Below, piece after piece: positions 6,621-52,833 of a stretch of DNA of 64,000 bases. The stretch comes from Torpedo marmorata. Taxonomy: Eukaryota. Each line of letters opens with the position of its first letter. Position 1 is the stretch's first letter. The stretch lies in assembly GCA_977017645.1 (NCBI GenBank), contig OZ360240.1:71176001-71240000 (forward strand), written 5' to 3'. The notes beneath the pieces are model-generated. The model did no database searches, was not told the origin of the DNA, and worked only from the letters and a program-made list of their open reading frames with translations. Both the position numbers and the translations under genes were made by a program.

Positions 6621-7539
6621 AAACACGGGCAAACAGAAGACTTCATTACCCCAGGAGTTGGGATGGAAGTGAACATCATTTCTGAGCTTCTACTGAAGGA
6701 CAGATCATTGACAAAGCAACAGCCACTGCTCTCAACGATGAGAGATCAATGAACTGCAGATGCTGGAAATCTGAAATAGAAACAGAAAATATTGAAAATA
6801 CTCAGGTCAGGCCACATGTGTGGGAAGAGAAACAGAGTTAACGTTTTAGGTCAAAAACCTGTCAGAACTGAGACAAAAGAAGCTTGTTAAGATGCAGTGA
6901 AAGTGGGGGGAAAGGGATGTCTCTATCAGAGTAAAACCAGGGTGACCATGGATATAAGCCATAAACAAGGTTATCTGGGAGTATTTAGAGCATGAGAATG
7001 CAGACAAAAAATAAAACCAGACAAACTGCAGGGGTTGTGAAATGCAGGGAAGGAAAACACGCCCATCTGGCCAGGGGGTGGAAGTTAGCATCAAGTCCAG
7101 AGCACTTGTTGGGCCTCATTGTAACAGTGCAGGAGGTCACAGTTCAAGGCAGCAGATGTATCAGACTTCAGAAATTCTCACCATCAGTTCAAACTGGAAG
7201 AATGGAACATAGGAGGGTGGGATGAAGAGAAGTTGAGATAGCTGTGGGAGTCTGTAGGGTAGTAATGAATTTTAGCCCATCCCTCCGCTCATATCCCTAC
7301 TCTCTTACTGCTCCCACTCATCTCCATGGTCATCCTGGTTTTACCCGAGTCGTTCCTCACCTCAAACTTGAGAAGCTTCTCTGGTCTCCTCCTTATGCTG
7401 ACAAATGGTTTTTGACCTGCAACATCAAGTCTGCTTCTCTACCACAGATCTGACTTGCTGAGTATTTCCAGCATTTTGTTTGTAATCCACCAATCCTGAC
7501 TTTCCTGTCTCTATCTTGGCTATCTCTTTCATAATTGTG

Positions 7540-9400: not shown

Positions 9401-9750
9401 AATCTTCTCGGGTTGTTCTCTTGGAGGACACACAGAAGTGAAAGAAACAGCAGGTAGGTCATTATAAGAAAAGCCTTTGTTTAGCATTACAGTTGATTAA
9501 TCTCTCATTAGCACAAATTCCCCATCCACCTTGTAACATTGTCAACACACGTGAATTGACAAGCTCTGCAAAATGAAGGTCAGATTCAAACATTCAAGTT
9601 ACAAAGCTACCAAGTTAAAGTTAAAACAGAATGTTGGGTATAATAGTTCCCTCCTTAAAAAGATTTAAATTAATCCATATGAGGAGTAGTGAGCCACAGG
9701 GCAAAGCAGTTTTATTAATGGAGCTGGAAGGGATACCTCAAGTACCAATA

Positions 9751-9980
9751 GCCTGAATACGACTGGGATTGTCTGATCTCGGAAGCTAAGCAGGCACAGG
9801 ACTGGTCAGTACTTGGAGGTGAGACCGCCTAGGAACACCAGGTGCTGTAGGTTTCTGTGAGGGATGCTGGACAAAGTAGTGACTCTCTGTCTGCCTTACG
9901 GTAGACAAAAATTAAAGAATTTCATGTATGTTACATACTAAATGTAGAATTACGTGACAATAATGGAACCTTTACCTTTA
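9751..9980 (+). mobile_element. 5S rRNA-derived SINE (SINE3-like)
   Basis: 9751-9853 aligns with 5S rRNA (GTCTGATCTCGGAAGCTAAGCAGG, AGTACTTGGA..GAGACCGCCT, GGTGCTGTAGG), followed by a non-5S body and the tail gtgacaataatggaacctttacctttac. Confidence 0.82.
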
Positions 9981-17501: not shown

Positions 17502-18404
17502 CTTTAATGCAAAACGTGACAGTAATTCAAGGTACCTTTATTGTCACGTACATAAACACACCAACTTTGTTTACCTGTAAAGGCACACAGAGAGGTTCCA
17601 CTAGTCTAGCACCCCTAACAAGAGGAACAAAAGGGAGTCTCTCCAGAGACATCAAGTGTCTGTGGACCCCACCACCTCCTCCGATACCACCATCTCCTGC
17701 GCTCCCATAGCCGCACGGTCTCCTCTCTGTTTCAGTGTCTGCGGCTTTTGATGTTCTTACAGATGATGAGAACATCTTGCGGCTCCGAAACAACCTGACT
17801 GGATCTGCCACGCGTTCGAGGCTAGCATCTCTGTCCACTAACCTAAAGAAGTGGTGGTCACATGGGGTGGGAGCCAGAAATTGCATCCCTCCGTCTTCCT
17901 TCTCTGACATGTAGATCATGCCCATAGGCATCCCGCTGAGAACAGGAGGTTTTTACCATGCAGACTCCAGGCAACTTAATGCACAGCAGCTTCACCTCTC
18001 TAGGCTCGAACATTCAAAAGATTCACAACCCTCAGAAACTGTTCTTGCTCATCTCAGTCTCAGATCAATCCTGAAACAGTTCCCCTCCCAGTTCTAGACT
18101 CCCTGATTTGGGGCAACATTTCCAGTGCATCAACCTGTCAAAATCTTCACCGCACCTGCACCAGAATCTTGCATTTCAATAAGATTGCCTTTCCTTCTGA
18201 ACTGCAGTGCGCCACTCCATGCTGATCAGCTATTTCTTATAAAACAACCCTTCATCACAGGAATCATTCTGGTCACCCTTCTGTCTTTCCTTAAATGAGA
18301 ACTGTTCATATTCCTCCAGGTGTGGTGCGACCATGGAAAGGCGGTATCAGGGCCACTGGAGTCCATCGGTGCTGGCCGACTGTTGTTGGACACTGACACG
18401 GGAG

Positions 18405-18531
18405 GCATCAGATGCTGAGTACAAATGAAAATAAGTGGCAAAACATTTTTAGGTCAGTTGAACTAACGCAACGTGTCAGCATCATTATGCGATGAAACAC
18501 GCTAAATTCAATAAAAGTTAATTTAATGTTT
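18405..18531 (+). mobile_element. Fragment of the same Chapaev3-type element
   Basis: Reverse-complement match to about 12222-12348. Confidence 0.75.
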
Positions 18532-19094
18532 AAAAAAAAAGGTGTGGTCTCACCAAAGCCTTCACCACCGATGCCACACTGGCCCACCCATACTCTCTGT
18601 CCTCCTGCGATAAAGGCCAACATTCCATTTTCCCAAATTACTTGCCGTACCTGCATTTTACACGAGGACTGCCAGAGTTCTCAGAACACCAAGAGTATAG
18701 TGCATTTACCATAGACAATGGCACAGGCAGAGACATTACACCTCTGCACAAGTTCACTTTTCCCTCAATATTCTCTTAGTTCACACGCAGTGCACTACCC
18801 GTAGACAAAAGCAAGACTTATTTAGAATACAGGAAACAGGAGCTGTTGAGTTTTTTCCACCAATCATCATGACTGATCCAATCTTGGCCTTAACACCACT
18901 TTCCTCGCTTGCCAAGCACTGCATTGAATATATTCCATGACTACAAGATGGAGAATTCTAAGAGAGTCACACTTCCCCCAGAAAAATCCTCATCTGAAAT
19001 AGGTGACTCTTGACTCTAGATCCCCAAGCAAGAGATAACCCTCTTCAGAACCTTGTATATTTTAATCAGATCGTTTCTCAGTTATCTCAACTTC

Positions 19095-19690
19095 ATATTG
19101 ATGATTTTTATTGTCATATATATTGTACAATGTACATATGCAACAAAATTCTTACTTACTGCAGTTGAACAGGTAGTTGTAAATAAAAACAATGGTATAC
19201 TTAATTTAAATAAATACAAAAAATATTCAGTTATCCTAGTGCAAAAAAAGTGTCTTAGCAGTGGTGTAGGCAACCCTTTTGTGGTGTCAGAGCAGTCCCT
19301 GATTAGTGTAAGAAGGGGAGGTTCAAGAGCCTGATAGCTGTTGGAATGAAACCTTTCTTCAACCTGGAGGTGCTGATCTGCATGCGTCTGTACCTTTTGC
19401 CTAAATGTAGCAGTGAGAAAAGGTGGTGACCAGGGTGATGGGGATCCTTATGATGTTGGCTGCCTTCTTGAGGCAATGCTTCACAGAGATGTCTGCACTG
19501 GATGGCAGGTCAGAGCCAGTGATGGACCTGGTTATGTTTACCTGGTTCTGTAGCCTTTTGCGTTCCTGGGCATTTGAATTCCCAAACCAGGCTGAGATGC
19601 AACCGGTCAGTTTACTTTCCAAGAGCATCTGTGCAAGTTTGATAGTGCATCCAACAATATTCTAAATCTCCTCAGACTCCTTAGAATGAA
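19095..19690 (-). mobile_element. Old Rex1-like 3' fragment; similar old fragments at about 29100-29410, 32720-33090, 41500-42090, 44500-45130 and 49800-50300
   Basis: Peptide ESKLTGCISAWFGN..ERKRLQ; tail atgacaataaa on the minus strand. Confidence 0.65.
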
Positions 19691-21146
19691 CTTCACTATC
19701 ACGCATCAATTCCTTGGAAATCCAAAGACACTAAATCGTTTCTCCACTGGTTTCCCTTTACCTAGCCTGTTTGTTGCATGTTGAAAGAACTTTGGCAAAT
19801 ATGTCACATAACTTCCCTTCCATAAAACTACATTGACTCTGCTTGAGTCCCCTACAATTTTCAAAATCTCCTCCTTTACAATAGATTCCACCATTTTCCT
19901 AATGACATACATCAGGCAAAGGGATGTATAGTTTCCTGCTTTCTGACACTGATTTCTTGAATAGTGGTTTTACATTTGGATTTTGAGAGACAGTTACACA
20001 GCACACAAACAGGCCCTTCAGCCCAGCTCACTGATACCTGCCAAGTTGCCCTCCTGCACTTGTCCCATTTGTCTGCGTTCGACCATATCCCTCTAATCCT
20101 TTGCTATCCATACAGCTGTCTAAATATATTTTGAATGTTGCAACTGTGTCCTTCAAAGCCCTTGCTAAAGTCACGTAGATACTGTCGACTGCCCTGCCGA
20201 ATCAATCATCGGTCACTCTTCAAAAGAAAAGAGTTTTCCACACAAAGGCATGGTGACCATCCAGAATCAGCCCTTTCCAATGCAGGTAGATCCTGTTGCT
20301 CAGAATCCCCTCCAGTAATTTCCGACCATTGACGGCAGCCTCACTGGCCTGTCGTTTCCTGGCTTCTTGCAGCCCTTCTTAAATAAAGGCACAACATTGG
20401 CAGTCCTTCAGTTTTCTAGCACCTCACCTGTGGCTAAAGATGATACAAAATCTCTGCAATGTCCCCAACATTTTCTACCCCCACTTCCCACAATATCCTC
20501 AGATACACTCGGGCATTTAGCCATCTTTAAACACCGGCACCTCCTCTCTGGTTATATGGATATGTTTCAAGATTTCACTATTAATTTCCCTCACTTCCAA
20601 GATCTTCTCCACGATAAACACAAAGATCCATTTAGAACATAGAAACAGAAACTACAGTTCGGCATTTAACATCATAATTTCTACAACACAGAAACAGGCC
20701 CTTCTAGTCTGTGCCAAACTATTATTTTGCCGAGTCCCACTGACCTGCACCCAGACCGTATCCCTCCATACCCCTCCCATCCATGTTCCTGCCCAAATTT
20801 TTGTTAAATGTCAAAATTGAGCCCGCATTCACCACTTCAGCTGGCAGCTCGTTCCACACTCCCACCACTCTCTGTGAAGAAGATCCCCCTAATGTTCCCT
20901 TTAAACTTTTTCCCTTTCACCCTTAACCCATGTCCTCCAGTTGCCTCACCTAACCTCAGTGGAAAAAGCCTGTTTGCATTTACTCTATCTATACCCATCA
21001 CAATTGTGTACACCTTTATCAAATCTTCCCTCATTCTTCTATGGTCCAGGGAATAAAGTCCTAACCTGTCCAAGCTTTCCCTGTGACTCAGTCCCTGAGG
21101 TCCTGGCATTAATACAAATATTTTTGTTTTTAATAAATTTATTAAA

Positions 21147-22470
21147 ATTCTGTGCTGACCAACTTACCAATGTATTCACGGATATCTTCAACATTTCACT
21201 CCGGCAGGGCGTGGTACCCACCTGTTTCAAACAGGCGTCAATCATACTGGTGCCCAAGAGCGTAGTAACCTGCCTTAATAACTATCGACCAGTGGCACTC
21301 ACATCAGCAGTGATGAAGTGTTTTGAAAGGCTGGTGTTGAAGCATATCAGCTCTTGTCTGAGCGGCGACATGGATACGTTCCAGTTCGCCTATCGCAGCA
21401 ACAGGTCTACAGCGGATGCCATCTCAGTGGCTCTACACAAAGCCCTGGAACACCTGGACAGTAAAGGTGCATTCATCAGGATGCTTTTTATCGACTACAG
21501 TTCGGCATTTAACACCATCATCCCCTAAAAGCTGATCAGCAAACTCTAAGACCGGGACTCAACACCGCACTGTGTAATTGGATCATGGATTTCCTCATCT
21601 CCAGACCACAATCAGTGAGGATTGGTAAGAACATCTCCTCCACAATCTCCATCAGTGTCGGAACACCATAGGGCTGCATTCTTAGCCCCCTGCTCTACTC
21701 ACTTTACACCTACGACTGTGTAGCTCGGTACGACAATAACACTATCTACAAATTTGCCGATGATATCACGGTAGTGGGTTGTATAAAGAAAGGCGATGAG
21801 TCAGCATACATGAGGGAGATTGAAAACTTGGCTGAATGGTGCACCAACAACAACCTTGCACTCAATGTCACCAAAACTAAGGAGCTAATTGTTGACTTCA
21901 GGAAGGGAAAACCAGAGGTATATAATCCAGTGGTCATTGGGGGGGTCAGAGGTGGAGAGGGTGAGCAAATTTAAGTTCTTGGGAGTCACTATCTCGGAGG
22001 ATCTTTCCTGGACCCAACACACTAATGGCATCATGAAGAAAGCACGTCAGTGCCTCTACTTCCTCAGGAGTTTGTGGAGGTTTGGTATGACACCAGAAAC
22101 CCTGGAAAATTTCCACAGATGTGTGGTGGTAAGTGTGCTGACCAGCTGCATCACGGTCTGGTATGGGGACACCAATATCCCTGAGTGTAAAGACCTCCAA
22201 AAGGTAGTGGACACAGCCCAGGACATCACATGCAAAACCCTCCTCACTATCGAGAACATTTACAGGGAACGCTGCTGTCGGAGAGCAGCAGCAATCATCA
22301 AGGACCCACACCACCCAGCACACGCTCTGTTCTCACTGCTGCCATCAGGAAAGAGGTATAGGTGCCACAAGACTCGGACCACCAGGTTCATGAACAGCTG
22401 CTACCCCTCTACCATCAGACTCTTCAAACTCAATCAGGGACTCATTTAAAGACTCTTACTTGTGCACTTA
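21147..22470 (+). mobile_element. Rex1/Babar LINE of a second subfamily, frameshifted RT fragment
   Basis: Peptides [64 protein letters not shown] across ORFs 20941-22449. Confidence 0.85.
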
Positions 22471-23135
22471 TAGATTCTCCTTTACCTTATCTGCCAAAGC
22501 TCTCTCATGTTCTCTTTTCGCGTCCTGATTCCTCTCATTCCTGACATTGTCCAGGGATTCACCTGATTTCAACTGCCTGTACCTGGCTGATGCTGCCTGT
22601 TTCCAGACAAGAGCGTCAATATCCCTTGTCAACCAGGGTTCCCCAATCCTGCCAGCCTTGCCCTTCATTCTGTCCCTGAATAAAGGCACAACATTGGCAA
22701 CCCTTGTTTTCCAGCACCTCACCTGTGGCTAAAAATGACACAAAATCTCTGCAAGGTCCCCAACATTTTCTGCCCCAACTTCTCACAATATCCTCACTTT
22801 AAAAACCTCCCATTTTCCTGCACACAATCTCTCCCAATCAATCTTTGTGAGTTCCTGTCTAATGTCATCAAAATTAGCCTTGGCCCAATTTAAGACTAAC
22901 TTCTGGACTTGTCCTATCTTTCTCCATAACCATTTTAAAATTAATAGAATTAGGGTCACTGCTCCTTCACTGACACTTCAGTCACTTGCCTTGGATCGTT
23001 TCCCAACAGGAGGTCAAATGCTGCCCCACTCGAAGAGAGCCGTGTACATATTGCTGGAGAAAGCTTTCCTGGAACACACTAACAAATTCTGCCCTACCCA
23101 AACTCTTAACACTATTGACAAACCCTATTATTCTT

Positions 23136-26100
23136 TAAAAAAATTTTTTTTTAAATTTTATTTAAACTTTTAAATCACAAAATACATAAGATAAAATACA
23201 AAATTATCAAAATACATGTGATACAATTTTCACACCCCCCACCCTCCCTCCCCTCCCCAACCCCCCCATACCCACTAATCTAGTAATATAAAATAAAAGT
23301 AAAAATAGAAAAAAGAAAGAAAGAAAAAGATAGAATAAGGGGAATATCATCTATAAACTAATTCTATTATGGAGGTCAAATATGCCAGTAGATCCGATAT
23401 CTAGAGATCTTCAGATCCTTAAACCCACAGCTCTCATATATGGGCTCCAAATTTTCAAGAAGAAATGATATTTATTACGTAAATTATAAGTAATTTTTTC
23501 CAGTGGTATACACGAACGGAGCTCTGCATGCCATCTTTCTAATCCTAAATCTAAATCAGATTTCCAAGTAATAGCAATGCATTTTTTCGAAACAGCAAAA
23601 GCAATTCGTAAAAATTCTACTTGAAACATATTTAATTTCTTTTTAATACTAAATTTTTTAATATCTCCAAATAAAAATAACATAGGATCCATTGGAAATG
23701 TAATATTAAATATTTTATCTAAAATTTTTTTAACTTTCAACCAAAAATCTTGAATCTTTGCACAAAACCATGTAGAATGAACAAAAGAACCTTCCTCATT
23801 ATTGCATCTAAAACATAGACCTGATAATGTCGGATTAAATTTCTTTAATTTTTTAGGTGTTAAATATAATTGATGAAAGAAATTATATTGTACTAATCTA
23901 TATCTAACATTAATAATTTTCGTCATACTTAACTTACATAAATCTTTCAAGTGATTTTCATCTATATTTACATTTAAATCTAATTCCCATTTTAATCTTG
24001 ATTTATGCAATCCTATTTTAGGCATTTTCCTCTGAAACAATTTATACATTTGAGAAATAAATTTATTAACATCTCCATTAGTAACTAATAATTCTAATTC
24101 ATTTTGTCTTGGTAAAATCAAAGCATAACCTAATTTCTCAATCAAAAAAGCTTTAACTTGATAATAAGCTAAAAATGTATTATCTGGTATATTAAATTTA
24201 TCTTTCATTCTTTGAAACGTAATAAATTTTCCAGCTTCAAAACAATCATTAATCTTCTTAATACCTTTTTGAAACCAAATTTTAAGTAACTGATTATTAA
24301 CAGTAAATGATATAAGTCCATTTTGATATAATGGCATATTTGAAGAAATTAATCCTCTTCCACCTATCTCTTTATCCGTCTTACCCCATATTTCTAACAA
24401 ATGTTTAATAATCGGTGAATTTTTCTTTTTTAATAATATTAATTTAGAATCCCATTTATAAATAATTTCTTCTTTAAGATTTTCTCCTATATTATTTAAT
24501 TATATTTTAATCCAAGCAGAAGATTTAGTTGAATCAAAAAAAATTCATTGACAAATTTTAATTGAGCTGCTTTATAATAATTTTGAAAATTAGGAAGTTG
24601 CAATCCACCCATCTCATAATTCCAGGTTAACTTTTCCATGCTTACTCTTGCTAACTTTCCTTTCCATAAAAATTTCCTAATAATAAAATTTAAATCTTTT
24701 TAAAATTTTTTTGAGGAATTCCAAAAGGAATTGATTGAAAAAGATACTGAACTCTTGGAAAAATATTCATTTTAATACAATTTACCCTTCCCATTAAAGT
24801 TATGGGTAAGTCTTTCCAATTCTCTAAATCTTTCTTTATTTTCACAAATAATGGTAGATAATTTAATTTATATAAATTTTCCAATTTTGTATCAACCTTA
24901 ACCCCCAAATATTTAATTCCTTCTTTAGCCCATTTAAATTGTGTAATTTCCTTACATCTAGTATAATCACCTTTAGATAAAGCCATTATTTCACTTTTAT
25001 CCGAATTAATTTTATATCCAGATATTTCACCATATTCTCTTAATATAATAGATAGTTGTTGAAGTGATATAATAGATTTTGTCATATATATCAATACATC
25101 ATCTGCGAACAAACTAATCTTATGTTCTTCCATACCAACTTTAATACCCACTATTTTAGGATCTTTTCTAACTAATTCAGCCAAGGGTTCTATCGCCAAA
25201 ACAAATAAAGCTGGTGACAGGGGACATCCCTGTCTCGTAGAACGTGTCAAAGAAAATTTTGGCGATATTTGTCCATTTGTAATTACTTTAGCTGATGGTT
25301 CTTTATATATAGTTTTAATCCAATTTATAAATGTATTTCCAAAACCAAATTTTTCTAATACCTTAAATAAAAAATTCCATTCTAATCTATCAAAAGCCTT
25401 TTCAGCGTCTAATGTTACAACTAATGGTAAATCTTGTTTCTTTTTATGCAAACTAATTAAACTAATTAATCTAGCTATATTATCCTTTGAATATCTATTT
25501 TTAATAAAACCAGCTTGGTCTATATGTATCAAATCTGGCAAATATTTAGCCATTCTGTTTGCTAGAATTTTTGCCATTATTTTATAATCTACATTTAATA
25601 ATGAAATAGGTCTATATGATTCAGTTTTTAATACATCTCTATCCTTCTTTGGTATAACTGTAATTATAGCATTTAAAAATGTTTTCGGTAATTAATGAGT
25701 TTCCGTAATTTGATCTAGTACTTCCATATATGGAGGTATCAATAAATCTTTAAATTCTTTATAAAATTCTGATGAAAACCCATCATCACCCGGAGATTTA
25801 CCACTCTTCAACGAAGAAAAAACTTCACTAACTTCCCTCATTGTGAAAGGCAGATCTAAAGAATTTCTACTCCGAATATTCAATTTAGGTAATATGATTT
25901 TAGATAGGAATCTATTAATTTTAGAATCATCTTGATCAATCTGCGATTTATATAAATTCTGATAATAGTTTTTAAAAGATTCATTTATCTCTTGAGGTTT
26001 ATAAGTTATTTCTCCAGTATTTTTCTTCCTTATAGCATTTATAGTTTTAGAAACTTGTTCTTTTTTCAATTACCATGCCAAAACCTTATGTGCTCTTTCT

Positions 26101-26538
26101 CCTAATTCATAATATCTTTGTTTAGTTTTCTCAATTAATTTTTCCATTCTATATGTTTGTAACAAATTATAATGTAATTTCTTCCCTATTAAACGATTTT
26201 TTTTGAATTGATCTATATCTCTGTAAATCCTTCTCCATAAGTTCAATTTCCTTCTCCAATTTTTCTGATTCCTTAAGATAATCTTTCTTAATTTTAACTG
26301 AATAACTTATTATTAGGCCCCTTAAATAAGCTTTTAAAGCTTCCCACACTATAAATTTATCATTAATAGAATTAACATTTATTCGTAAAAATTCCTGAAT
26401 TTCTCTTCTTATAGATTCACAAAAATCTTTCCTTTTTAATAACGACGAATCAAATCTCCAATTATATATAGTTTTTTCTTTTTCCGGAATTATACAAGAC
26501 AATAACAAAGGTGAATGATCAGAGATTACTCTCGCTTT
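23136..26538 (-). mobile_element. AT-rich L1-clade LINE, 5'-truncated ORF2 with frameshifts, inserted in a CR1 fragment
   Basis: 16-bp TSD aaaccctattattctt at 23120-23135 and 26539-26554; SDHSP, DAEKAFD, TRQGCPLSP, LFADD and the CFRC..H....C zinc knuckle. Confidence 0.93.
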
Positions 26539-28076
26539 AAACCCTATTATTCTTACAGCTATTTGCAATCTCCTGATATAGTTGCTACTCTAATTCATGC
26601 TGACTGTCAAGGTTCTTTGGTTCAATCCCAAATTCATCACCACCTTCTCATTTCTAAGTTCCACCCATATAGCCTCTCTGTACAATCCCCCAGCATGTAC
26701 CACAGGATGTTGTCCCAAATTAAAACACATTATCCCCTGCTCTCTTACCTCCACCTCTATCACACTAGAAGTATCTGCACACCAGAACACCGCTGCCAGT
26801 CCTCCTCAAGCACATTACTGTTATAACATCCCAGTCCCACGTACCTGTTCTAGCCACGAGTTTATCTGCCTTATCTGTCAGGCCTTTCATTAAAATAAAT
26901 GCAGTTTCATCTATCAGGCCTTCCTCGCTCCATTGTTTGTTTTAATTTTCACATCTGCCTCAACTTTAACATCTGCTACACGACTGTTATTGGTCCTACC
27001 TCCCTACTCAGCTAATTTAAACCCTCACAAGTAGTTCTAGCAAATCTCTGTCAGAATATTGGCTCTCTTCTGGTTCAGGTACACCCCATCCCTCTTGTGC
27101 AGGTTAACCCTGCCCCAGAAGAGATCCCAAGAATATGAACCTCTCCCCTCCTGCACCAGCTCCTCAGCAACACACTGATCTGCACGATCCTCCTATTCAT
27201 ACCCTCACTAGCATGTGCACCAGGAGTAATTCAGAGATTACAACCATAGAGGTCTTGCTTTTTAACCTTTTGTCCAACTGCCTATATTCACTTTGCAAGA
27301 CCTCACCCCCTTTTCTACCTGTCTACAAAGACCTTTGATCCAGAGAATCAGGGTGCATCACAACATGCGTATCTGCTATAGCCACGTCCAGAGGATCCGT
27401 TGGTCTTTAGTCTCATGTTTTCCTGGTACTTTTTATCCCTAGCTATTAGGATTGGTTCATTCTCCTTCCTTCTAGCCCCTTGATTATCTATTATTGATGT
27501 TTTTAGTGTCTACTGCCATGTAGACCGATCCAAGGTAATTATTTAAAACTGCCATTTTTCTATTTGCCATTCATTCCCCACTCTCATCGTCTAACAGAGG
27601 AACTTTGGCAATTCTCTTCCTTTGCCTGGAGAAGCTCTATGTCCAATTTTATATTTGCTAGTCAGTCCCATACTCTTATCTTTCCCCTCTTTACAAATTA
27701 TTGGTTATTCTTCGCTAGTTTCTATACATTTCCAGGTCTACTGTGCTAATTTTTGCAATATTTTCTGCCTTTTCTTTCCTCCTACGATTTCTTAGTTCTG
27801 GTCAAAGCTCATCAACTTGACCCAATAGTACCACATGCTGCCAAACCTGCTGGGAACTTCCAGCATTCTGTTTCAGGTTTCTTGTGACTGCAGCGTCTTG
27901 GTGGTCCTAGCCTTGGGCAGGAAGATACAAAGGGGATCCAAGTCAACATGTTCTTTTACAACGAACTGGAGAACAGGAAATCACTGCCTGTAGGGGTGGT
28001 GGAATGTCAACCAGGACCTTTGAAAGGGAATTACATGGGCAGGTGAGAGAGGGCAACTCTACTCAGAACCAGCAAG

Positions 28077-28821
28077 TAAAAAAACACAAATGCTGGAGAA
28101 ACTCAGCAGGTCAAACAGTGTCTTTTATGTAGCAAAGGTAGAAATACATAACCGACGTTTCGGGCTTGAGCCCTTCATCAAAGTATGAGAAAATGCCGGC
28201 AGGCATCCGAACAAAAGAGTGAGGGGGGGAAAGGTGGGGTGGCAAAGGCAGGAGATGATAGGTGGAGAAAGGAGGGAGGGGACAGCAGCAAAGAGGGGGA
28301 GGAGGGATGGCTGGGTGGGTGGAAAAAAAACAGGAAGGACAGGTGAGGGGGGAGGGGAAGGAAAAGACAAGCAGGTTTAGTGGAAAGCAGAAAAGTCAAT
28401 GTTGATGCCAAATGGCTGGAGAGTGCCCAGACGGAAAATGAGATGTTGTTCCTCCAATTTGCGGGTAGTCTGGGTGGGATAGTACATAAGGCCATGGACA
28501 GACATGTGAGTATGGGAGTGTGACTCAGAATTGAAATGGCTGGCTACTGGGAGGTCGCTGTTGTTGCGGACGGAGAGGAGGTGCTCAGCAAAGCGATCTC
28601 CCAATCTACGACCGGTCTCTCCGATGTAGAGAAACCCACAAAGGGAGCACCGGATACAGTAAATAAGTTCTCTGGATGTACAAGTGAAGTGTAGTTTCAC
28701 TTGAAAGGCCTGTTTGGGGCTACATGTTTGCTACATAAAAGACACTGTTTGACCTCTGCGTTTCTCCAGCATTTGTGTTTTTTACTTCAACCACGGTGTC
28801 TACAGATTTTCGTGTTTTACT
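28077..28821 (-). mobile_element. 5'-truncated Penelope-like element: GIY-YIG endonuclease C-terminus, pseudo-LTR with a hammerhead motif, and an inverted pLTR segment
   Basis: Peptide FTCTSRELIYCIRCSLCGFLYIGETGRRLGDRFAEH..PVASHFN; TSD tcagaaccagcaag at 28063-28076 and 28822-28835; 28727-28787 is an inverted copy of about 28075-28136. Confidence 0.88.
28147..28187 (-). ncRNA. Minimal type I hammerhead ribozyme motif (PLE-associated, U3 variant)
   Basis: Minus strand reads CATACT-TTGATGA-A-GGGC-TCAA-GCCC-GAAACGTC-GGTTATG. Confidence 0.65.
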
Positions 28822-30729
28822 TCAGAACCAGCAAGAACTGAATGGACAAAAAATTCTGCTCCAATGCCCAGACCATTCTACGATTCTGTGGAAGGCCGAG
28901 AAAGCAATTAAGCTGTATCAAAAATCACCTCATCTTAGAAGACAGAACCAACTAACATCAATTCAGGCATTGGATTTGGACAGCAATGGTATCTAACCCA
29001 CGACAAATCTCCAGCAACTGGGGTCCAAACTGGTGTACTGTGAACACCAAAAAAAGCCTTCCTTAATCAAACGTACCGAATTGTACCCTTCAGTCAGCAT
29101 CCCGGACCCCATCACAACCACTGTGTACCTCTAGGTTCAAGAACAGTATTGTTCCAATGGCTATCAGGCTCTTGAACCTCCCCTTGTTACACTAATCAGA
29201 GACTGCTCCAACACCACAAATGGACTGTAATGCCACTTTTTTTTGCACTACAATAACTGAGTTTTAATCTTTTGTATTTATTGTCTCTTTGAATTCATTA
29301 TGTTTACTTTTGTAGTTTTCTTTAAACAAAGTGCCTGATGGGCTGCAGCAAGTTAAGAATTTTGGTGCACATGCACATTGTACAATGTAAATGACAATAA
29401 ACTCATTATCACACAAGTCTCAGATACATCAGGTGGGCAGTATGGAGGTATATAATTGGCATGAAGTGGTCTTCAACATTTACCCCATGAAGTATCTCGG
29501 CGCCACATCACACTTCATGCTTTCTCTCAGTAGATTAACAGCATTAAGTTTGGAGTAATGGTTTAACAAATGGCTCCTGTAATATTGACATAGTATTTGA
29601 CGCTGCTTTTTCTATAAATACTGCAACTATGTTTTAGGAAAAAGCTTTCAGAGAAACTCTCTATGGAGGAGCTACCCCTCCTCTGTGAAGTATTTAACAG
29701 CAGAGAGGAAGGATGCATGACCCATATTTTGTTGAAAACAAAGCCCTTTGCCACTTTTCCAATATCCAGCTGAGGCTGATGTGTGGTGTTAGAAGGGCTG
29801 TCTAATGAAAACTGAAATCTAGACCCTGTGCCTGAATGGGCACTGAGAGATTTAAGTGATATATCACACCATGGAATAAATAAAGATGTCTAACCCACTG
29901 GATTCCCAGACCAATAAACTGGCTAAACAGAGACCGTGGAGGGAAACCTTACGACCTATGCTGAGTTGGGTGCTCGAGATATACGAGAACCAGCTCAGGT
30001 GAAGATGTTACGTAAAGGCCAATGGCCACAGAGGCAGAGAGCTGTACTGTGCCACGAAACCCTCAAATGAGATCCTGCAGAATGCATTGTGTGCACCAAA
30101 AAGGGCATTGCATCCCCCTGCAAAAAAAATAATTGACTATTAACTATAGTTTGTATGCAACCAGGAGTATGGCAAATCTTTTGGTGGTCTATTTACAGCC
30201 AACACTGCTGGCCAATGATGGCGAATTCTTTCAGCAGAGATCTAAATGCACGCACAATCAGGGGTACAGCCTGGCAGAACAGCTACCGCACGAGAATATA
30301 GGAAGCTACAGGAAAGTCGTCATTAAGGTATAAAGGGTGCAGCAAAGATTTACAAGAATATTACCATGACTAACAAGCTTGAATTAGAAGGAGAGTCTGG
30401 CACTTTTCTCCCTGGAGCACAGGAGGCTAGGAAGGAGCTTGGAGGTTTATAAAATCATGAAGGGAATAAACAAGATGAAAAGTCAGTCTTTTTCCCAGCA
30501 TAGGGAAATCAAAAACCAGAGGCCATAGATTTAATGTGAGAGGAAAAAAGATTTAAAAAATGGCCCTTGGGTCAACTTTTTCCAGAGGGTGGGGGGGGGG
30601 GGGGGGCGGTGATATGGAACAAGCTGCCAGAGGAAATGATAGAAGCGAAAACAATTGTACTGTTCAAGAGACATTTAGACAGGTACCTGGATACAGGAAC
30701 TTGCTACAGAAAAGATATCAATAAGATTA

Positions 30730-30995
30730 GGGCGGCATGGTTGGCGTAGCGGTTAGTGCAATGCCTTTATAGCGCCAGCGATCAGGACCGGACCGGGGTT
30801 CGAATCCCGCGCTGTCTGTAAGGAGTTTGTATGTTCTCCCCGTGTCTGCGTGGGTTTTCTCCGGGGGCTCCAGTTTCCTCCCGCCGTTCAAATCGTACCG
30901 GGGGTGTAGGTTAATGGAGTGTAAGTTGGGCTGCACGGACCCGTGGGCCGAAATGGCCTATTACCATGCTGTATGTCTAAATTTTAAAAAATTTA
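30730..30995 (+). mobile_element. tRNA-derived V-SINE/HE1-like SINE inserted in CR1
   Basis: A box tggcgtagcggtt, B box ggttcgaatcc, V-domain-like ggagtttgtatgttctccccgtgtctgcgtgggttt, tail tgtctaaattttaaa. Confidence 0.8.
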
Positions 30996-31756
30996 AAGAT
31001 TGAAACAGAGCAGAGAAAATTTACAAGAATGTTGCCAGGGCTTGAGGAGCTGAGTTACAGGAAAAGGTTAAATAGATTAGGACTTTATTCCCTGGAGCGT
31101 CGAAGGAGAGATTTCAGAGTTAAACAAAATTATGAGGGGTATTGATGGAGTAAATGCAAGCAGGATTTTTCCTCTGAAGTTAGGTGATCTGGAGCTCGGG
31201 TTGCCGATGAATCGAACAGGAGTCTGTGAGGCTGCAGAGACTGCATGAGCACTGGAGGCAAATCCACGGACACTCAGTGACTCTGAAGGGACTCTCTTTT
31301 GCTTCTCTTTCTCTTGTATTGTAAGGGGCACCAGGCAATATTAATGGCGACTCTTTGTCTGCCTTAAGGCAGGCAAAAGTTAAAATATATCATGTATGTT
31401 ACGCTTTTAATGCATTATTACGTGACAAAAAAAGGAACCTTGAACCCTGAGAGAAGAACTAGAGGACATGAGTTAAGGGTGAAAGGTGAAATATTTAAAG
31501 GCAACATTCGGGGAAACTTCTTCACGCAGAGTGGTGAGAGTGTGGAACGAGCTGCTGGCTTAAATGGTGAATGTGGGCTCAATTTCAAAATTTAAGAGAA
31601 ATTTGGATAGGTACATGGATGGAGGGATATGGAGGGCTAAAGGCCGGGTGCAAGTCAATAGGCCAAGGCAGAATAATAGTGCGACATGGACTAGATGGGC
31701 CAAAGGGCCAGTTTCTGTGCTGTAGTGTTCTATGGTTCTCAAGGAAAGGTTTAGAG

Positions 31757-32132
31757 CGGTGGTTTTCAAACTGCCCCCCTAAACTCACATTCCACCTTAA
31801 GCAATCCCTGTGCCATAAGTGCTCAGTGATTAATAAGGGATTACTTAAGGTGGTATGTGAGTGGAAAGAAAAAGTTTGAAAACCACTGTTTTAATTGTAC
31901 CTAATTGACTCGTTATGAGCACGGTTTCATAACTCCAAAGGAAATGGGCCAATGACAATTTTTCTCAAGCAAAATATTTCAGTAACAATTGGGTCTAGAG
32001 CAGTAGTTCTCAACCTCTTTTTCCCCACTCACATACCACCCTAAGTAATCTCTTACTAATCACAGAGCACTTATGGCATAGGGATTACTTAAGGTGGAAT
32101 GTGAGTTTAGGGGGGCAGTTTGAAAACCACTG
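31757..32132. mobile_element. hAT (Charlie-like) composite MITE
   Basis: Ends C(G)GTGGTTTTCAAAC / GTTTGAAAACCACTG, 8-bp TSD gtttagag, long internal inverted repeat. Confidence 0.88.
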
Positions 32133-33699
32133 GTTTAGAGGAATGTGGGTCAAATGCAGGCAAATGGAATTAGCTTGGCTGGCATGGACAAGTTGGACTG
32201 AAGGGCCTGTTTCTGTGCTTGAGAACTCTGAGACAGTTAACTTGAGGAATCTGTGAAGTTCTTGAATACCAAGCTCGAAATGTTGGATGAACAAGAGTGA
32301 GAAGTACATGGGATGAAGTATGAGACAATAGGCAGGATGGCTCAGCTGTTGCAAGTATTGTGAGCAGCAAAAAGAGCAGCTGAATACAAAATACCCCACA
32401 CATGGGAACAGTGGTTGCAACATCATTGGTCCAAAGTGCACGAAGAGGACATGAGAAGTCACTGGAGTGGACAAGAGAAGCCACGCAGGGACAGAGTTTG
32501 ATTCAGAGCACCAGATACCAAATGGGGTCAGCTCTGGAAGGAACCGCCCCCCCAAAACATTGGCACCACACAAGTGACACAACAAGAAGTGACGCAACTT
32601 GCAAGTTTAAGCTAGAAGTTTAAGTTTCTCACAAAATATCTAGTAGAGTAAGAATAGTCCTTCTGCAGGCAGACCAACAGATCATCCCTAACATTCACAT
32701 AGCTGTGTGAAGAGCACAATTACCGGAGTATAGGATTGCAATGTAAAGGAAGATCAATTAGCACCAAGGGCAGCAGGACAGCACTGTTCTGGGATTCATT
32801 CAGGAGCCTGATGGCTGCAGGGAAGAAACTGTCTTTTCTTGGCAGTAGATGGAGTCTATGGAAGGGAGGGTACTTTGTGATGTTCTGAGTCACATTTACC
32901 ACCTTCCGCAGCTTTTTTAATCTTAGGTAGAACAGCTCCTGTACCATGCTGTGATGTATCCAGCAAGTCTGCTTTCAATGGTGCACCAGTAGAAGTTGTT
33001 GAGGGACAGGGGGACATGCCGAACTTCCTTAGTCTTCCAAGAAAGTGAAGGCGCTGGTGTGGTTTCATGACCGAAGGCATTCGTGCTCTTTTGTCACACA
33101 CCCCTGAAGCAAGTCTTGGTGCAACGCAGTACTTGGAAGGTATTCACTGCACAGTCTCTATTGTTTAGCCAGTTTTCTTGCCTGGAAATCCAGTGGCTTG
33201 GGCATCTTTATTTGTTGCCTGGTGTGCTATATCACTTGAATCTCTCAGCACAAATTCACATGTTTACTGCAGAGACAGAGCCTAAAGTTCATGTTCATCC
33301 ATCAGCTCTTCTACCGCCAGCATCACCTGGGCACCAGAGTACTGGGAAAGTGTGTTCTTTTACACACAACGAACTTGGGAAGGCCTGCACTGTCAACATA
33401 GATGACACTGAAGTCAGCTGGTGAATGACAAAGAATCAAGAGAAACAGATTGTTTTTTATCTTAATAGATCAGAAACCTGTGTAACTGGCATCCAGCAGA
33501 TGGGAGTGATAAAGAACATAGAACATAACAGCACAGTACAGGCCCTTCAGCCCATGATGTTGTGCTGACCTATGCAAACCTACCTCACAACAATCTAATC
33601 CTTCCCTACCTCACACCCATAACCCTCTATTTTTCCTTACATGTCTAAAGGTTCCCTAGGACAGGACTCTGGGGAACTATCAGAGATCTACCCTTCTTA

Positions 33700-33931
33700 G
33701 CTCTCTTATCTCCCCTCTCAGCTTCTGTCTCTTCTACCCTTTCACCTGTATCCACCTATCATTCTTAACCTCCTCCCCCTTCCCCCCTCCTCTCCTCACC
33801 ACCTTTTTATTCATGCATCTACCTGTTTTTTTCTGATTCCTATCGAAGGGCTCAGGCCAAAAATGTTGGTTACCTTTCACTTCCGATGGACGCTGTGTGA
33901 TCTGTTGAGTTTCTCCAGCACATTTGTGTAT
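33700..33931 (+). repeat. Degenerate Penelope pLTR copy; others at about 2170-2262, 6755-6865, 7395-7480, 11088-11310, 16968-17080, 27800-27905, 40080-40140 and 41440-41500
   Basis: Pyrimidine tract, then gaagggctcaggcc.aaa.gttgg, then ctgctgagtttctccagca, shared with the 28 kb element. Confidence 0.65.
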
Positions 33932-34359
33932 TGCTCTTGGCAGAGTCAAGACTGGCCAGAGATATCCAGTCCTGGAGCTGAACAGGTTAGAGTGACAAGT
34001 CTATGTAAACTTTTCCAAAGCGAGAAGCTCAATGTCTCCTCTTTATGTGAACTCAACAAATGGGAGAAGGAGATCTAGAATCCACAATCTTGGTTTCAGC
34101 TTTAGATGGCTGCTGATGAATCAAGAGAGTTTACTAGCTCCGTTAGAGTGCCCTAAATACTTGCAAGGGCTGGGGCAAGAATTGGGTGAAAGGTGGGCTT
34201 TATGCTCCTCCCAATATTGACTTGAATAGAAAATAAAATTAGGGCAAATTGAGTGGAATGTAATTTGCCCTAATTTTATTTTATTCCACTCAATCCCTGT
34301 TTTCCAAAGATTGGTTGGGTTAAAGACCATCACAATTCAGCAGCACGCTCTGTACTTAC

Positions 34360-34444
34360 AATCCGCTGCCTCTCTCTCTTCTTCCAACGTAAATGTGCAT
34401 TTGCTGCTGCCATGGCCTCGATAACAAATGTTGTGGTCATATAG
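34360..34444 (-). CDS. TMEM104: TMEM104 coding exon 3 (YMTTTFVIEAMAAANAHLRWKKRERQRI)
   Basis: Matches the recalled FVTTTFVIEAMAAANAQLHWKR; acceptor ctccctgcag|, donor ATT|GTAAGT; 85 nt, phase 2 to 0. Not in the ORF track. Confidence 0.95.
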
Positions 34445-35007: not shown

Positions 35008-38000
35008 TGTTAAAGTTTGTGGACATTTAAACATTATCTTGTGGCATTGTAAAGAATTCTGGGACTGTTTCTATAAAAGTTGGCCAACATAGAATGCAAA
35101 GGATTATGAGATTGTAACTTTAGTTGAACTTTAAGTTTCGGTTTCTGAAGAAGTGATTATGACTTCATTACCCCAGAAAGGCGGTCATATAAATCAGTTG
35201 TAATGCTTTTATCATCAAGAAGGGACAACATTAGATATTTCACCGTCGCAAGTTTCTTTGCCAAGTACTTCAGGAAAAGAGGATGAGGCCGAGATCGAAA
35301 TTGATGAAGAACAAGTTCATAAGGACCTTGAAGAAGCTAAATGAAGATATGATAATAAATGTTATGTAAAATCTGTTGGGGGGGAGGGTGGACTTTTTGT
35401 TTTCTCCTTCCTAGCCGCATACCACCTTAGTGGCGACGGCCACTTCACGAGTAATGGAGGGGGTAATACTGGGGTGATTTTGCCAGTATTTTATTTTCTT
35501 TTTCTTTTTAAGGAAATGTCAAATAGATAACGAATGTGGAGGAGGGTGCTGGTGGATCTGATGGAGAGAGAGTTATTAAGATTTAGTAATGATGGATAGT
35601 AAAACAATAAATGTAGTAAGTATTAATATAAATGGGCTAAATAACCCGATTAAAAGGAAGAAAACTTTAGCGTATATTAAAAAGTTAAATGTAGATATAG
35701 CTTTTTTACAAGAGACACATTTGACAGATTTAGAACATTAGAAGTTGAAGAGAGAATGGGTTGGTCAAGTGGTTGCATCTTCATTTAATTCTAAAGCAAG
35801 AGGAGTTGCTATATTAGTATATAAAAAGTTACCTTTTAAAATACAATCTGTGGTTATAGATGTGGTAGGTAGATATGTTTTAATACATTGTCAGATATAT
35901 TCGGAGATGTGGACACTTATGAATATATATGTACCAAATATCGAAGATGAACAATTTATTCAAGATTCTTTTATGCATTTGTCAGAAGCTAATGATAATA
36001 TTTTAATTGGTGGGGATTTTAATTGTTGTTTAGATCCGATAATGGATAAAACATCAAAATCAGTTGTTAAATCTAAAATTGCTAAAAGAATTCTTATTTT
36101 GATGAAAGAGTTAAACTTAATATATATTTGGAGAAAATTGAACCCTAGAGAAAAAGATTATTCTTTTTATTCTTTTAGACATGATTCATATTCTAGGATA
36201 GATATGTTTTTATTGTCCTCACAAGTCCAAGATAGGGTAACACAAGCACGTTATAAAGCAAGAATAATTTCTGATCATTCGCCTTTATTAATGTCTTGTA
36301 TAATTCCAGAAAAAGAAAAAACTATATATAGGTGGAGATTTAATTCCTCTTTATTAAAAAGAATGGATTTTTGTGATTATATAAGAGAAATTCAAGAATT
36401 TTTACAGATTAATTCTAATTCGATTGATAATAAATTTATTATTTGGGAAGCTTTAAAGGCTTATTTAAAAGGCCAAATAATAAGTTATTCAGCAAAAATT
36501 AAGAAGGAATATGTTTGGGAGGTGGATAATTTGGAGAGGGAGATTGAATTTTTGGAGAAGGACTTGCAAAAAAAAGATCAGAAGAAGAAAAATTTAATTG
36601 GGAAAAAATTGCATTATAATATGTTACAAACATACAAAATGGAAAAATTAATTGAAAGAACTAAGCAAAGATATTATGAATTGGGAGGAAGAGCTCATAA
36701 AGTGTTGGCGTGGCAATTAAAGAAAGATCAAACTTCTAGAACTATAAATGCTATAAAAAAGAACTCTAAGAAAATAACAAACCTTGAAAAATAAATGATT
36801 CTTTTAAGGATTTCTATTTGAATTTATATAAATCTCAGATTGATAAAGATGATTCTAAAATTAATGAATTTCTATCTAAAATTAAGTTACCTAGATTAAA
36901 TACTCAAAGTAAAGAATTTTTAGACTCGTCTTTTTCAATGAGGGAAGTTAATGATGTTCTTAGTTCTTTAACGAGTGGTAAATCTCCAGGGGAGGATGGT
37001 TTCCCATCAGAATTTTATAAGGAGTTTAAAGATTTATTGATACCTCCATATATGGATGTGTTGAAACAAATAACGGAAACTCATTCGTTACCGGAAACAT
37101 TTTCGAATGCAATAATTACAGTTATACCTAAAAAAGATAGATGTGTTGAAAATAGAATCATATAGACCAATTTCATTGTTAAATGTGGATTATAAAATAA
37201 TGCAAAAATTTTAGCAAATAGAGTGGCTAATTATTTACCAGATTTAATCCATGTAGATCAAGCCGGTTTTATTAAGAATAGATATTCAAAAGATAACATA
37301 GCTAGATTAATTAGTTTAATTAATGTGGAAAAAAAAGAGATGATCTAGCATTAGTATTAACATTAGATGCTGAAAAGGCTTTTGACAGATTAGAGTGGAA
37401 TTATTTATTTAAGGTATTGGGGAAATTTGGTTTTGGAACTACATTTATTAATTGGATTAAAACTATATATAAAGAACCATCTGCTAAAGTGGTGACAAAT
37501 GGATAAATTTCTTCAAAATTTTCTTTGACTAGGTCAACTAGACAAGGAAGTCCTTTGTCGCCAGCATTGTTTATTTTAGCAATAGAACCTTTGGCAGAAT
37601 TAATTAGACAAGATATTAAGATTGTAGGTATTAAAGTTGGAAGAGAAGAGCATAAAATTAGTTTATTTGCAGATGATGTATTTATTTATATGACAAAACC
37701 TATTACTTCTTTAATACAATTGACTGTTTTATTGAGAGAATATGGGGAAATATCTGGTTATGATTAATTCTGATAAAAGTGAAATTATGGCATTGACACA
37801 AGGGGATTATAGTAAATGTAAAATTACACAATTTAAATGGTCAAAGGAAGGAATTAAATATTTGGGAAAAAAAGATACAAAATTAACTAATTTATATAAA
37901 TTATTTACCATTATTTATGAAAATTAAAAAAGATTTTAAAAGTTGGAAGGACTTACCTATAACTTTAATAGGAAGGGTAAACTGTATTAAAACGAATGTC

Positions 38001-50819: not shown

Positions 50820-50981
50820 CTTAGAGAAACACGATAGGCTGCAGTCGCTGTGATTGTAGTAAAAACACCGAAATGCTGGAGGAAGCATCTATAGGAGACA
50901 AAGATATATTGCCGATGTTTCAGGCCTGAGCCCTTCTTCACAAAGATATATTGCCGACGTTTCGGGCCTGAGCCCTTCTTC
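50820..50981 (-). repeat. Penelope pLTR-derived repeat with two tandem hammerhead-like units
   Basis: Units 50899-50940 and 50941-50981 read GAAGA-A-GGGCTCAGGCC(C/T)-GAAAC(G/A)TC-GGCAATATATCTTTG on minus, followed by the ...CCTCCAGCATTT tail also seen at 28090. Confidence 0.7.
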
Positions 50982-52711
50982 CAACAGGCACTTACACAGA
51001 CACACAAACATGCAGAGAATAGAGGAATAAAGAGCAAGTACATGCAGATATGCAGTTTAGGCGGACATCCTGGTCAGCAAACAGGATGGGCTGAAGGGCC
51101 TGTCCCTGTGATGTAATGTTCTACGTTAAACAAGGTAATCATGTTAAATTAGGATTGTTCTAGCAAGGAGGCAGAGCAGTCACAACAATCCAAAAACATT
51201 CTGCTTGTCATATAAAATTCAATAGTTCCATAATCATCTGACACTTAAAATAAGAAACATGGCCAAACCTTCCCGAGTTTCATATGGCCACATTTCACCC
51301 CCTCCCCCCAAACGTATAGAAAGGAAATCTGTGCAAAGCCATGTTGCATTCTTAGTGTCAAATCCATATATACATTTCATTACTGTACATTTTATTGTTA
51401 ACCATTAATTTTACTACATCACACCCTTGCCTTTAATGTGGGCCCCTGGGGTTACTCCCCCACTCAGTTGTTTGAGGGGCTTCCCCACCAGTCTCAGCCC
51501 CTCAATGCCCTGCAGCAGAAAAGATCTTAGATTTGTTCTTCTCCACAAAGCACTTCGGCTCTGTGCTTTACCTAGCTGTACTTGTACACTCCTTTTTTCT
51601 TCACTCTGACTTCTCCTCATTTTAGTCAGGGAGACTATACTGTGCCGACCTGCAGAACTATCATTTGGTTGAGTTTTCACTGGATTCCAAACATTATGAT
51701 CATGAACTGATTTTTTTGGAAGCAAGAACTGTATGCAACTTATAACCTTTTGCTGATTTTAAAGTACAGAAGAGAACATGCATCGGATTAACCAAAAGCT
51801 GCACCCGAATTAACAGAAAACAAGCAGTCTGCTGCCATCTCCTGGTATATACCTACCCCTGCATCTGTAAAAACATCAACAGACAATGGAGGAAAATACC
51901 AGGATTGTAATTAAGATGCAATTTCAATGGAAAATAATTCTTCCTTGGAAGATTATTACTTTCCAGTTTTCTATTATGCTCAGCCCAGGAGTTAAGTGTT
52001 TCCTCAGCATGGTTCCTCTCTGAAACTGAACCACAGCACCAAAGCACACCTTGGACTGGTTTGCGTTCTGGAGAAAGAAGACAAGGAGAAACAGTGAAGG
52101 AACAGAATGCACCAACTCTGGGATCAGAACTCGCTTCCAATCCATGTAATCAACCTGGATTCCAAGCTGATCTGATTCACAGCTGACATAGAACAGGAAG
52201 ATGCAGCAGCCAGAAAACAACAGTACAAGCTAACCTGCATTGGCTAAATCACAATCTGCTCCTGGGATTTGAACAACTCATTATTGACTTGACCCTCCTC
52301 ACTTGCATTAAAGGAATTAAGGATGTGGAGTTACATTGATCAGCCCAGGGGTGTTATTTGTGACTGTTTTTTTTTTATTTAAAAAAAACTTTTCTAACTT
52401 TTTTAAAAATCTCAGTCCCTTTTTTGTAAGTTTCGTCCGGTTTCCTCCCACGTTTCAAAGACGCATGGGGTTAGTAGGTTAATTGGTCACATGGGTGTAT
52501 TTGGGCAGTGCGGGGTCGGAAAGGCCTGTTCCCTTGCTGTATTTATAAATTACTGTAATTATACAAAAAAACTGGAAAGAGTTTTGAACACAGACTAAAG
52601 CACACAAGATTTAAAAGTTGGTGTCTGGACACTATTCCCCCTGAAAATTACGATACTGTCTTGTGACACCTCTCACACAGCTGCTCTTCAGAACCACTAT
52701 GGCACAAATAC

Positions 52712-52833
52712 CTCATAAACGCCAAGAAGATAATGAGAGCCAGGCTCACAGCCCAACCAGAAACAGCGAAGGCCTGTGGCATCGTCAGTGCTCCTGTCCC
52801 AACGATCAGGTTAAACATATACACGAGCCCCAC
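52712..52833 (-). CDS. TMEM104: TMEM104 coding exon 2 (VGLVYMFNLIVGTGALTMPQAFAVSGWAVSLALIIFLAFM-S)
   Basis: Carries the APC/SLC38-type TM1 motif NLIVGTGALTMP; acceptor tttctag|GTG, donor AG|GTATTT; 122 nt, phase 0 to 2. Confidence 0.95.

What the first reader, a model, noticed from the sequence alone, without database searches (positions are those of the whole stretch)
28147..28187. Minimal hammerhead ribozyme in a Penelope pseudo-LTR, on the TMEM104 sense strand
Seen: the minus strand folds as helix I (CATACU/GGUUAUG, one bulge), core UUGAUGA plus an extra A, helix II GGGC-UCAA-GCCC, then GAAAC-GUC with a palindromic ACGU and no helix III hairpin. Predicted cleavage is between 28154 and 28153. 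Established: Penelope-like elements carry such minimal type I hammerheads, which cleave mainly as dimers. Inference: this copy lies in the TMEM104 pre-mRNA orientation, so it could cut the intron if it finds a partner, for example the same-strand copies at 50.9 kb.
Basis: partly seen in the sequence, partly recalled or inferred. Interest (0 to 1): 0.7.

Follow-up and report, generated by a model that had tools for sequence, protein, structure and literature searches.

The report
Wobble-core hammerhead in intronic Penelope stub
This is one of about 100,000 copies of a small hammerhead-ribozyme motif carried by a Penelope-like jumping gene in a ray-like genome; it lies in a TMEM104 intron in the gene's own direction, but it has a U-G in place of the usual C-G core pair and no usable partner nearby, so it is likely a silent passenger here.

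Summary
The motif is there as described (28187-28147, minus strand; predicted cut 28154|28153). It was the only hit of a strict descriptor in the window, with 0 hits in 100 shuffles. It lies in the 3' end of a 745-bp, 5'-truncated Neptune-type Penelope-like insertion with a 14-bp target duplication, in a 16.9-kb TMEM104 intron, in sense. This is family-wide: 100,409 U3 against 2,762 C3 matches in the genome. Six U3 subfamilies keep the rest of the core fixed while N7 and H17 vary, which points to selection in the master elements. One published Penelope hammerhead (Saccoglossus) has the same wobble. The partner idea fails. The 50.9-kb copies lie 22.8 kb away in the previous intron, have broken cores, and form 1 and 2 of 6 helix I pairs. 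No same-strand copy shares this intron. Sense copies are not depleted in genes (34 sense, 27 antisense). Cutting is untested; no raw reads were available. The scan has noted this wobble-core family before, in this genome and in another. Verdict: new member of a known kind, likely silent at this locus.

The parts
28147..28187 (-). Minimal type I hammerhead motif with U3.G8 wobble, extra A after A9, palindromic ACGU in place of helix III; predicted cut 28154|28153
28077..28720 (-). 5'-truncated 3' end (pLTR-equivalent) of a Neptune-type Penelope-like element; 96% identical to a copy with an 893-codon open frame
28380..28718 (-). Open C-terminal GIY-YIG endonuclease coding end of the element (113 aa, P0001); stop about 190 nt before the motif
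   Evidence: (PF01541 E 4.4e-4, below the curated cut-off)
28727..28821 (+). Inverted short copy of the element's 3' end with the tail extension; does not include the hammerhead
28063..28076 (+). 14-bp target-site duplication, left copy
28822..28835 (+). 14-bp target-site duplication, right copy
17502..34359 (-). TMEM104 intron (third coding intron, about 16.9 kb) that holds the insertion
   Evidence: GT/AG ends read from the sequence; from protein homology, no RNA data
34360..34444 (-). TMEM104 coding exon that separates the motif from the 50.9-kb copies
50907..50989 (-). Two tandem degenerate hammerhead-like units of another subfamily, in the previous intron; cores broken; rejected as partners
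52712..52833 (-). TMEM104 second coding exon

Best explanation
The 41 bases are the minimal hammerhead motif at the 3' end of a truncated Neptune-type Penelope-like insertion in a TMEM104 intron, in sense; the family carries a U3.G8 wobble and likely works as a slow, partner- or protein-dependent ribozyme only in tandem full-length elements, so this lone copy is likely a silent passenger. Shown: the anatomy, the insertion ends, the intron, the copy numbers, the family-wide U3, and the lack of a partner in the intron. Inferred: in a tandem element two motifs about 4.1 kb apart would pair through ACGU/ACGU and exchange helix I strands, perhaps helped by the element's protein, and cut after C17; a cut in the upstream repeat would leave a 5' end about 150 nt before the first ATG. 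Inferred: at this locus cutting is rare, and a slow intronic cut would likely not stop splicing.
For: Insertion 28077-28821 with 14-bp duplication; 96% identical to a copy with an 893-codon RT + GIY-YIG frame and the CX4CxxC linker. Tandem copy L075 has the motif in both 606-bp repeats, 4,074 nt apart, ATG after the first. 60,040 exact copies of the 27-mer, 226 of them with C3; 100,409 U3 against 2,762 C3 with a looser pattern; U3 in 100 of the 100 listed copies found by flanks alone, of 64,256 (counted by eye). Majority sequences of six U3 subfamilies: positions 4, 5, 6, 8, 9, 12-14, 15.1, 16.1 never vary, N7 takes all four bases, H17 is C or U, while 16 of 33 tail columns vary; helix I keeps pairing with two changes on both sides between c34T and c14T. 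No other same-strand copy in the intron; nearest with a whole core lie 53 and 89 kb downstream. No sense depletion in 618 kb of gene bodies: 34 sense, 27 antisense; intact cores 11 and 4. Literature: single min-HHR showed no cleavage, dimers low cleavage (PMC4209133); the Anolis PLE hammerhead cleaves only with protein, is not needed for insertion in vitro, and no read ends were seen at its site (PMC11167929); introns cut by a hammerhead were still spliced (as reported in PMC2995048).
Against: No cleavage data for this family and no measured rate for a U3.G8 core was found. The active-type dimer is far less stable by nearest-neighbour energy (-13.7) than the best dimer (-31.0) or two monomers, which argues even against activity in tandem; the model ignores tertiary contacts, and C3 subfamilies show the same gap. 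Helix II never varies across subfamilies, so it gives no covariation and the conservation could be at sequence level. Copies were collected by likeness to the motif (at least 20 of 26 letters), which favours a conserved core. The strand test is small, copies in palindromes are not independent, and gene direction came from Pfam exon hits. About 100,000 copies could supply partners in trans.
Confidence: 0.6

Rival explanations
1. The U3.G8 motif no longer cuts anywhere; master elements keep it as a structure or sequence signal, for example for binding of the element's protein or for where copying starts or ends. This copy is equally silent.
For: U3 is fixed across lineages up to about 0.5 changes per column apart and no repaired subfamily has spread: G8A (U3-A8) 790 copies against 542 for the G5A control. 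The youngest subfamily also has U.G at the closing pair of helix I. Helix II and its loop are conserved letter for letter. Hammerhead mutants did not affect insertion in vitro (PMC11167929); Naiad elements thrive without canonical hammerheads (PMC8557442).
Against: The pattern of change is that of a catalytic core: N7 and H17 free, G5, A6, G8, A9, G12-A14 fixed. A PLE-linked family with U3.G8 is listed among published representatives (PMC4209133 Fig. S3), untested there.
Confidence: 0.3
2. This copy cuts the TMEM104 intron often enough to change splicing or mRNA level, using a partner in cis or in trans or the element's protein.
For: Sense orientation and an otherwise whole core. Conserved intronic hammerheads exist in amniote genes (PMC6155905). 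Very many potential partners in trans.
Against: The named partners fail and lie in another intron; wobble core; core-sequestering fold preferred; the copy is a young, family-typical insertion (96% to other copies) with nothing locus-specific; no sense depletion in genes; slow intronic cuts are compatible with splicing.
Confidence: 0.05
3. The motif is a chance look-alike within a repeat.
For: Rfam gives no hammerhead match; predicted fold is not the hammerhead fold.
Against: 0 hits in 100 shuffled windows; position in the pLTR, extra base after A9, G10.1-C11.1 and palindromic 15.2-16.2 all match the published min-HHR consensus.
Confidence: 0.02

Closest known systems
Minimal type I hammerheads (min-HHR) in pLTRs of metazoan Penelope-like elements (Cervera and De la Pena 2014, PMC4209133; main text parts 1-2 of 4 and supplement parts 1-2 of 3 read)
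   Same: Location in the pLTR, no helix III, palindromic 15.2-16.2, extra base between 9 and 10.1, G10.1-C11.1, thousands of solo truncated copies.
   Different: U3.G8 instead of C3-G8 in 97% of matches; about 100,000 copies against 4,000-9,000 reported for coelacanth and Xenopus; short 4-bp helix II; bulged helix I. No cartilaginous fish among the Fig. S3 rows that I read.
Saccoglossus kowalevskii (1) PLE hammerhead, core UUGAAGAA (PMC4209133 Fig. S3)
   Same: U at 3 with G at 8, in a PLE.
   Different: One listed representative, not discussed in the text that I read and not assayed; here the state is shown across six subfamilies and about 100,000 copies.
U3-A8 natural core covariants (S. mansoni Cercyon, PMC4209133; PMC3088659 section 8 read)
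   Same: U at position 3.
   Different: There G8 changes to A and the Watson-Crick pair is kept; here G8 stays, and U3-A8 copies are at background level.
Neptune-type EN+ Penelope-like elements (Craig et al. 2021, PMC8557442, passages)
   Same: RT followed by Zn-finger-like linker and C-terminal GIY-YIG; 5' truncation, partial tandems, adjacent inverted truncated copy, tail at one end.
   Different: Clade placed by the linker motif only; no RT tree was built.
Domesticated intronic hammerheads of amniotes (RECK and others; PMC6155905, passages)
   Same: Type I hammerhead in an intron in sense.
   Different: Those are single, conserved across species and canonical; this one is a young copy of a mass repeat with a minimal, wobble core.

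Membership tests
PLE minimal type I hammerhead | Core boxes U4 G5 A6 N7 G8 A9 and G12 A13 A14 A15.1, U16.1 H17 | tested here: met
PLE minimal type I hammerhead | Watson-Crick pair at 3-8 (C3-G8 or U3-A8) | tested here: not met
   U3.G8 here and family-wide; one published representative shares it, so it lowers the claim of activity more than the claim of descent
PLE minimal type I hammerhead | Extra base between 9 and 10.1; G10.1-C11.1 pair; palindromic 15.2-16.2; no helix III | tested here: met
PLE minimal type I hammerhead | Helix I and II with covariation | tested here: inconclusive
   Helix I: two changes on both sides between two subfamily majorities; helix II invariant
PLE minimal type I hammerhead | Lies in the pLTR of a PLE, twice in tandem elements | tested here: met
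   L075
PLE minimal type I hammerhead | Self-cleavage as a dimer or with protein | not testable with these tools
   Only assembled contigs were offered
Neptune-type EN+ PLE | RT plus C-terminal GIY-YIG in one frame | tested here: met
   893-codon frame; RVT_1 E 8.7e-7 and GIY-YIG E 0.0065, both just under curated cut-offs
Neptune-type EN+ PLE | CX2-5CxxC linker between RT and EN | tested here: met
   Seen in P0122; definition
Neptune-type EN+ PLE | Placement in an RT phylogeny | not tested
   No reference set aligned
Domesticated intronic hammerhead | Orthologous copy conserved across species | not tested
   No related genomes held for this window; young repeat identity argues against
Non-LTR retrozyme | Tandem non-coding repeats, each unit with a whole hammerhead | tested here: not met
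   Solo copy joined to endonuclease coding sequence; definition

The most novel reading that the evidence does not exclude
A vertebrate retrotransposon lineage tuned its hammerhead down on purpose: U3.G8 was kept through long divergence because it slows cutting (and weakens a core-sequestering misfold that C3 makes 2.4 kcal/mol stronger in this context), so that cutting happens only in tandem elements bound by their own protein, and 100,000 copies could fill host introns in either direction without harming pre-mRNA.
Probability: 0.12. Interest if true: 0.65.

Novelty: new member of a known kind. Interest (0 to 1): 0.3.

Why it matters
At this locus, little: thousands of introns in this genome must hold the same motif in sense. 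At family level it offers a direct handle on an open question, whether Penelope-like elements need their hammerhead to cut. A very successful family with a wobble at a normally fixed core pair, next to C3 relatives in the same genome, is a ready-made pair for a cleavage assay.

Tried and rejected
Rfam scan of the window: no hammerhead among 14 matches at E<=5. Partners at 50.9 kb: rejected. A repaired U3-A8 subfamily: not seen, 790 against 542 control copies. C3 members of the young subfamily as a separate active line: 5 such rows scatter among U3 rows in the tree, and several are truncation junctions or one-base deletions. Order of C3 and U3 in evolution: not decided; the tree of 36 copies (up to 6 per cluster and state, those with an endonuclease end, out of 215 collected) is midpoint-rooted with weak deep support, and one row (L076+6992) is chimeric. 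Expression and cut ends: no RNA holder listed; all runs were contigs, which cannot show ends. State of position 3 in other organisms: no row for 28181 in the cut or partial difference tables; loose ends behind 28181 in two runs read like the CAUACC-U3 subfamily, a weak hint only. Measured rate for U3.G8: not found in three searches; Lunse et al. 2017 and five other papers asked for by id were not held, so Lunse et al. and its supplements may already list this variant. A search for PLE hammerheads in elasmobranchs gave nothing on topic beyond one preprint that sampled one cartilaginous fish. Searches gave no output and were rewritten.

Full report
Observation. In hammerhead numbering U3 is 28181, G8 28176, A9 28175, the extra A 28174, helix II 28173-28170 with 28165-28162, G12 28161, C17 28154; the predicted cut is 28154|28153. 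A strict descriptor finds this one site in the window and none in 100 shuffled windows. Rfam lists no hammerhead among 14 matches. The predicted fold is not the hammerhead fold: the core pairs with CGUCGG (-11.8 kcal/mol), and helix I + II alone has probability 0.0007. In the context of the whole insertion helix II forms at 0.78 and the inner helix I pairs at 0.01-0.02.

The element. The motif lies in an insertion at 28077-28821 between two copies of a 14-bp target duplication. It has a minus-strand part, 28720-28077, that holds the last 113 codons of a GIY-YIG endonuclease and the non-coding 3' end, and a short inverted copy of the 3' end with its tail, 28727-28821. This is the layout described for Penelope-like elements (PMC8557442, passages). 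The body is 96% identical to a copy with an 893-codon open frame holding RT, a CX4CxxC linker and GIY-YIG, which marks the Neptune type. A tandem copy, L075, has two 606-bp repeats, each with the motif, 4,074 nt apart; the window's copy matches both at 95%. So 'pseudo-LTR' is fair, but this copy is a solo, truncated one.

The host gene. The gene is TMEM104: its last exon is 93-95% identical to ray proteins of that name. Exons map on the minus strand at about 62066-62013, 52833-52712, 34444-34360, 17501-17394 and 13480-13400, and on beyond the window's start. The motif is in the 16.9-kb intron 34359-17502, in sense.

The partner idea. The two units at 50989-50907 are 22.8 kb upstream, in the previous intron. 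Their cores read UGGAAGA and GUGAAGA, and the second has lost the palindrome. As the enzyme half for the 28154 site they would form 1 of 6 and 2 of 6 helix I pairs. Of 13 motif-like sites over about 130 kb of the gene, none other lies on the same strand in this intron; the nearest same-strand ones with a whole core are 53 kb (G10.1 changed) and 89 kb downstream. Partners in trans cannot be excluded.

The core variant. Position 3 is U, facing G8. The 27-mer that follows has 60,040 exact copies, 226 of them preceded by C. A looser pattern gives 100,409 U3 and 2,762 C3 matches. Copies found by flanks alone number 64,256, and all 100 listed have U3 and G8 (counted by eye); most of their other changes are at CpG sites. 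The change G8A, which would give a U3-A8 pair, is seen 790 times against 542 for G5A, so no repaired subfamily has spread. C3-G8 is a Watson-Crick pair in the active core (PMC3884650, passages), natural U3-A8 covariants are known (PMC3088659, section 8; PMC4209133), and single C3G or G8C changes abolish activity of a PLE hammerhead (PMC11167929, passages). That C3U with G8 lowers the rate strongly is recalled; three searches found no measured value. One published PLE representative, Saccoglossus (1), has the same wobble (PMC4209133 Fig. S3).

Is the motif still under selection? Among 215 copies collected from all fetched DNA, six U3 subfamilies with 3 or more members were compared (a seventh, c33T, a CpG-decay split of the young family, was left out). 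Ten catalytic-core columns never vary, N7 takes all four bases and H17 is C or U, while 16 of 33 tail columns vary; at the tail's rate ten fixed columns would have a chance of about 0.001. Helix I keeps its pairing, with A-U to U-A and C-G to U-A between c34T and c14T. Against this: helix II is invariant, copies were collected by likeness to the motif, and subfamilies are related. A tree of 36 copies without the motif puts U3 in lineages up to about 0.5 changes per column apart but does not order C3 and U3.

Effect on host genes. In 618 kb of gene bodies whose direction was taken from Pfam exon hits and TMEM104, 61 motif-bearing copies split 34 sense to 27 antisense (p 0.44); intact cores 11 to 4 (p 0.12); intact U3 cores 11 to 3 (p 0.057) (the wider tail search gave 50 to 49). 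There is no sign of sense depletion, but the sample is small. In the literature a single min-HHR did not cleave and dimers cleaved poorly (PMC4209133); the Anolis PLE hammerhead needs protein and left no read ends in RNA-seq; introns cut by a hammerhead were still spliced, while a fast HDV ribozyme blocked splicing (as reported in PMC2995048, passages). No raw reads were available here.

Mechanism. Most likely (0.6) the motif works, slowly, only where two copies are transcribed together and perhaps with the element's protein, and this lone copy is silent. The main rival (0.3) is that the wobble form no longer cuts and is kept as a signal. An effect on TMEM104 is unlikely (0.05). One speculative reason for U3: with the GG that follows the cut site, C3 makes the core-sequestering fold stronger (-14.2 against -11.8 kcal/mol).

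Earlier scan notes. Notes on this genome and on another report the same family-wide variant. I had found it before the look-up and tested it here; the notes are not independent support.

Papers seen: PMC4209133 (main text parts 1-2 of 4; supplement parts 1-2 of 3); PMC3088659 (outline, sections 8 and 9); bioRxiv 10.64898/2026.07.22.740005 (part 1 of 5 and passages; supplements closed); PMC11167929, PMC6765202, PMC8557442, PMC2995048, PMC3884650, PMC6155905, PMC7151607 (passages). Lunse et al. 2017: title in a reference list only.

Verdict. Observation confirmed; interpretation partly supported; new member of a known kind; interest 0.3, nearly all of it for the family-level wobble core and not for this locus.

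Noticed in passing
G000:C53:70.59-70.71 Mb against the window (offset about 523 kb); L049: The TMEM104 region appears twice on the contig; 10 kb around the finding is 99.95% identical (1 mismatch, 4 gap bases). A very recent segmental duplication or an assembly artefact.
   Followed up: partly
G000:C53:71168091-71168094 (L046), also L008/L009, L079: Short head-to-head palindromes of the element's 3' end whose junction falls in or just before the hammerhead core; many 5' truncations end near positions 2-7 of the motif.
   Followed up: no
window 9735-9853 (+): 5S rRNA-like sequence, 38.6 bits, with mismatches and a shortened 5' part; likely a pseudogene or SINE3 head.
   Followed up: no
window 54500-58800 (-): Gypsy-type LTR retrotransposon remnant in several broken frames, with 179-bp direct repeats at 54561 and 58639; family name from recalled motifs.
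   Followed up: no
window 23400-26600 (-), 35700-39400 (+), 45800-48700 (+): Three related L1/Tx1-like LINE copies at 81-94% identity, one inverted to the other two, so long inverted repeats lie in the TMEM104 pre-mRNA; family name from recalled motifs.
   Followed up: no
window 62560-63400: Satellite of 23-24-bp units just beyond the first coding exon of TMEM104.
   Followed up: no
L073-L075 (G000:C5:33.39-33.41 Mb; C584:51-61 kb): Copies of this element sit between long arrays of short GC-rich repeats, twice in tandem 7.9 kb apart.
   Followed up: no
one search hits at C53:57249576 and more than ten other places: An identical 39-codon piece matching the start of the Aa_trans family is repeated on many contigs: an exon carried by a repeat or a much-duplicated gene.
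   Followed up: no
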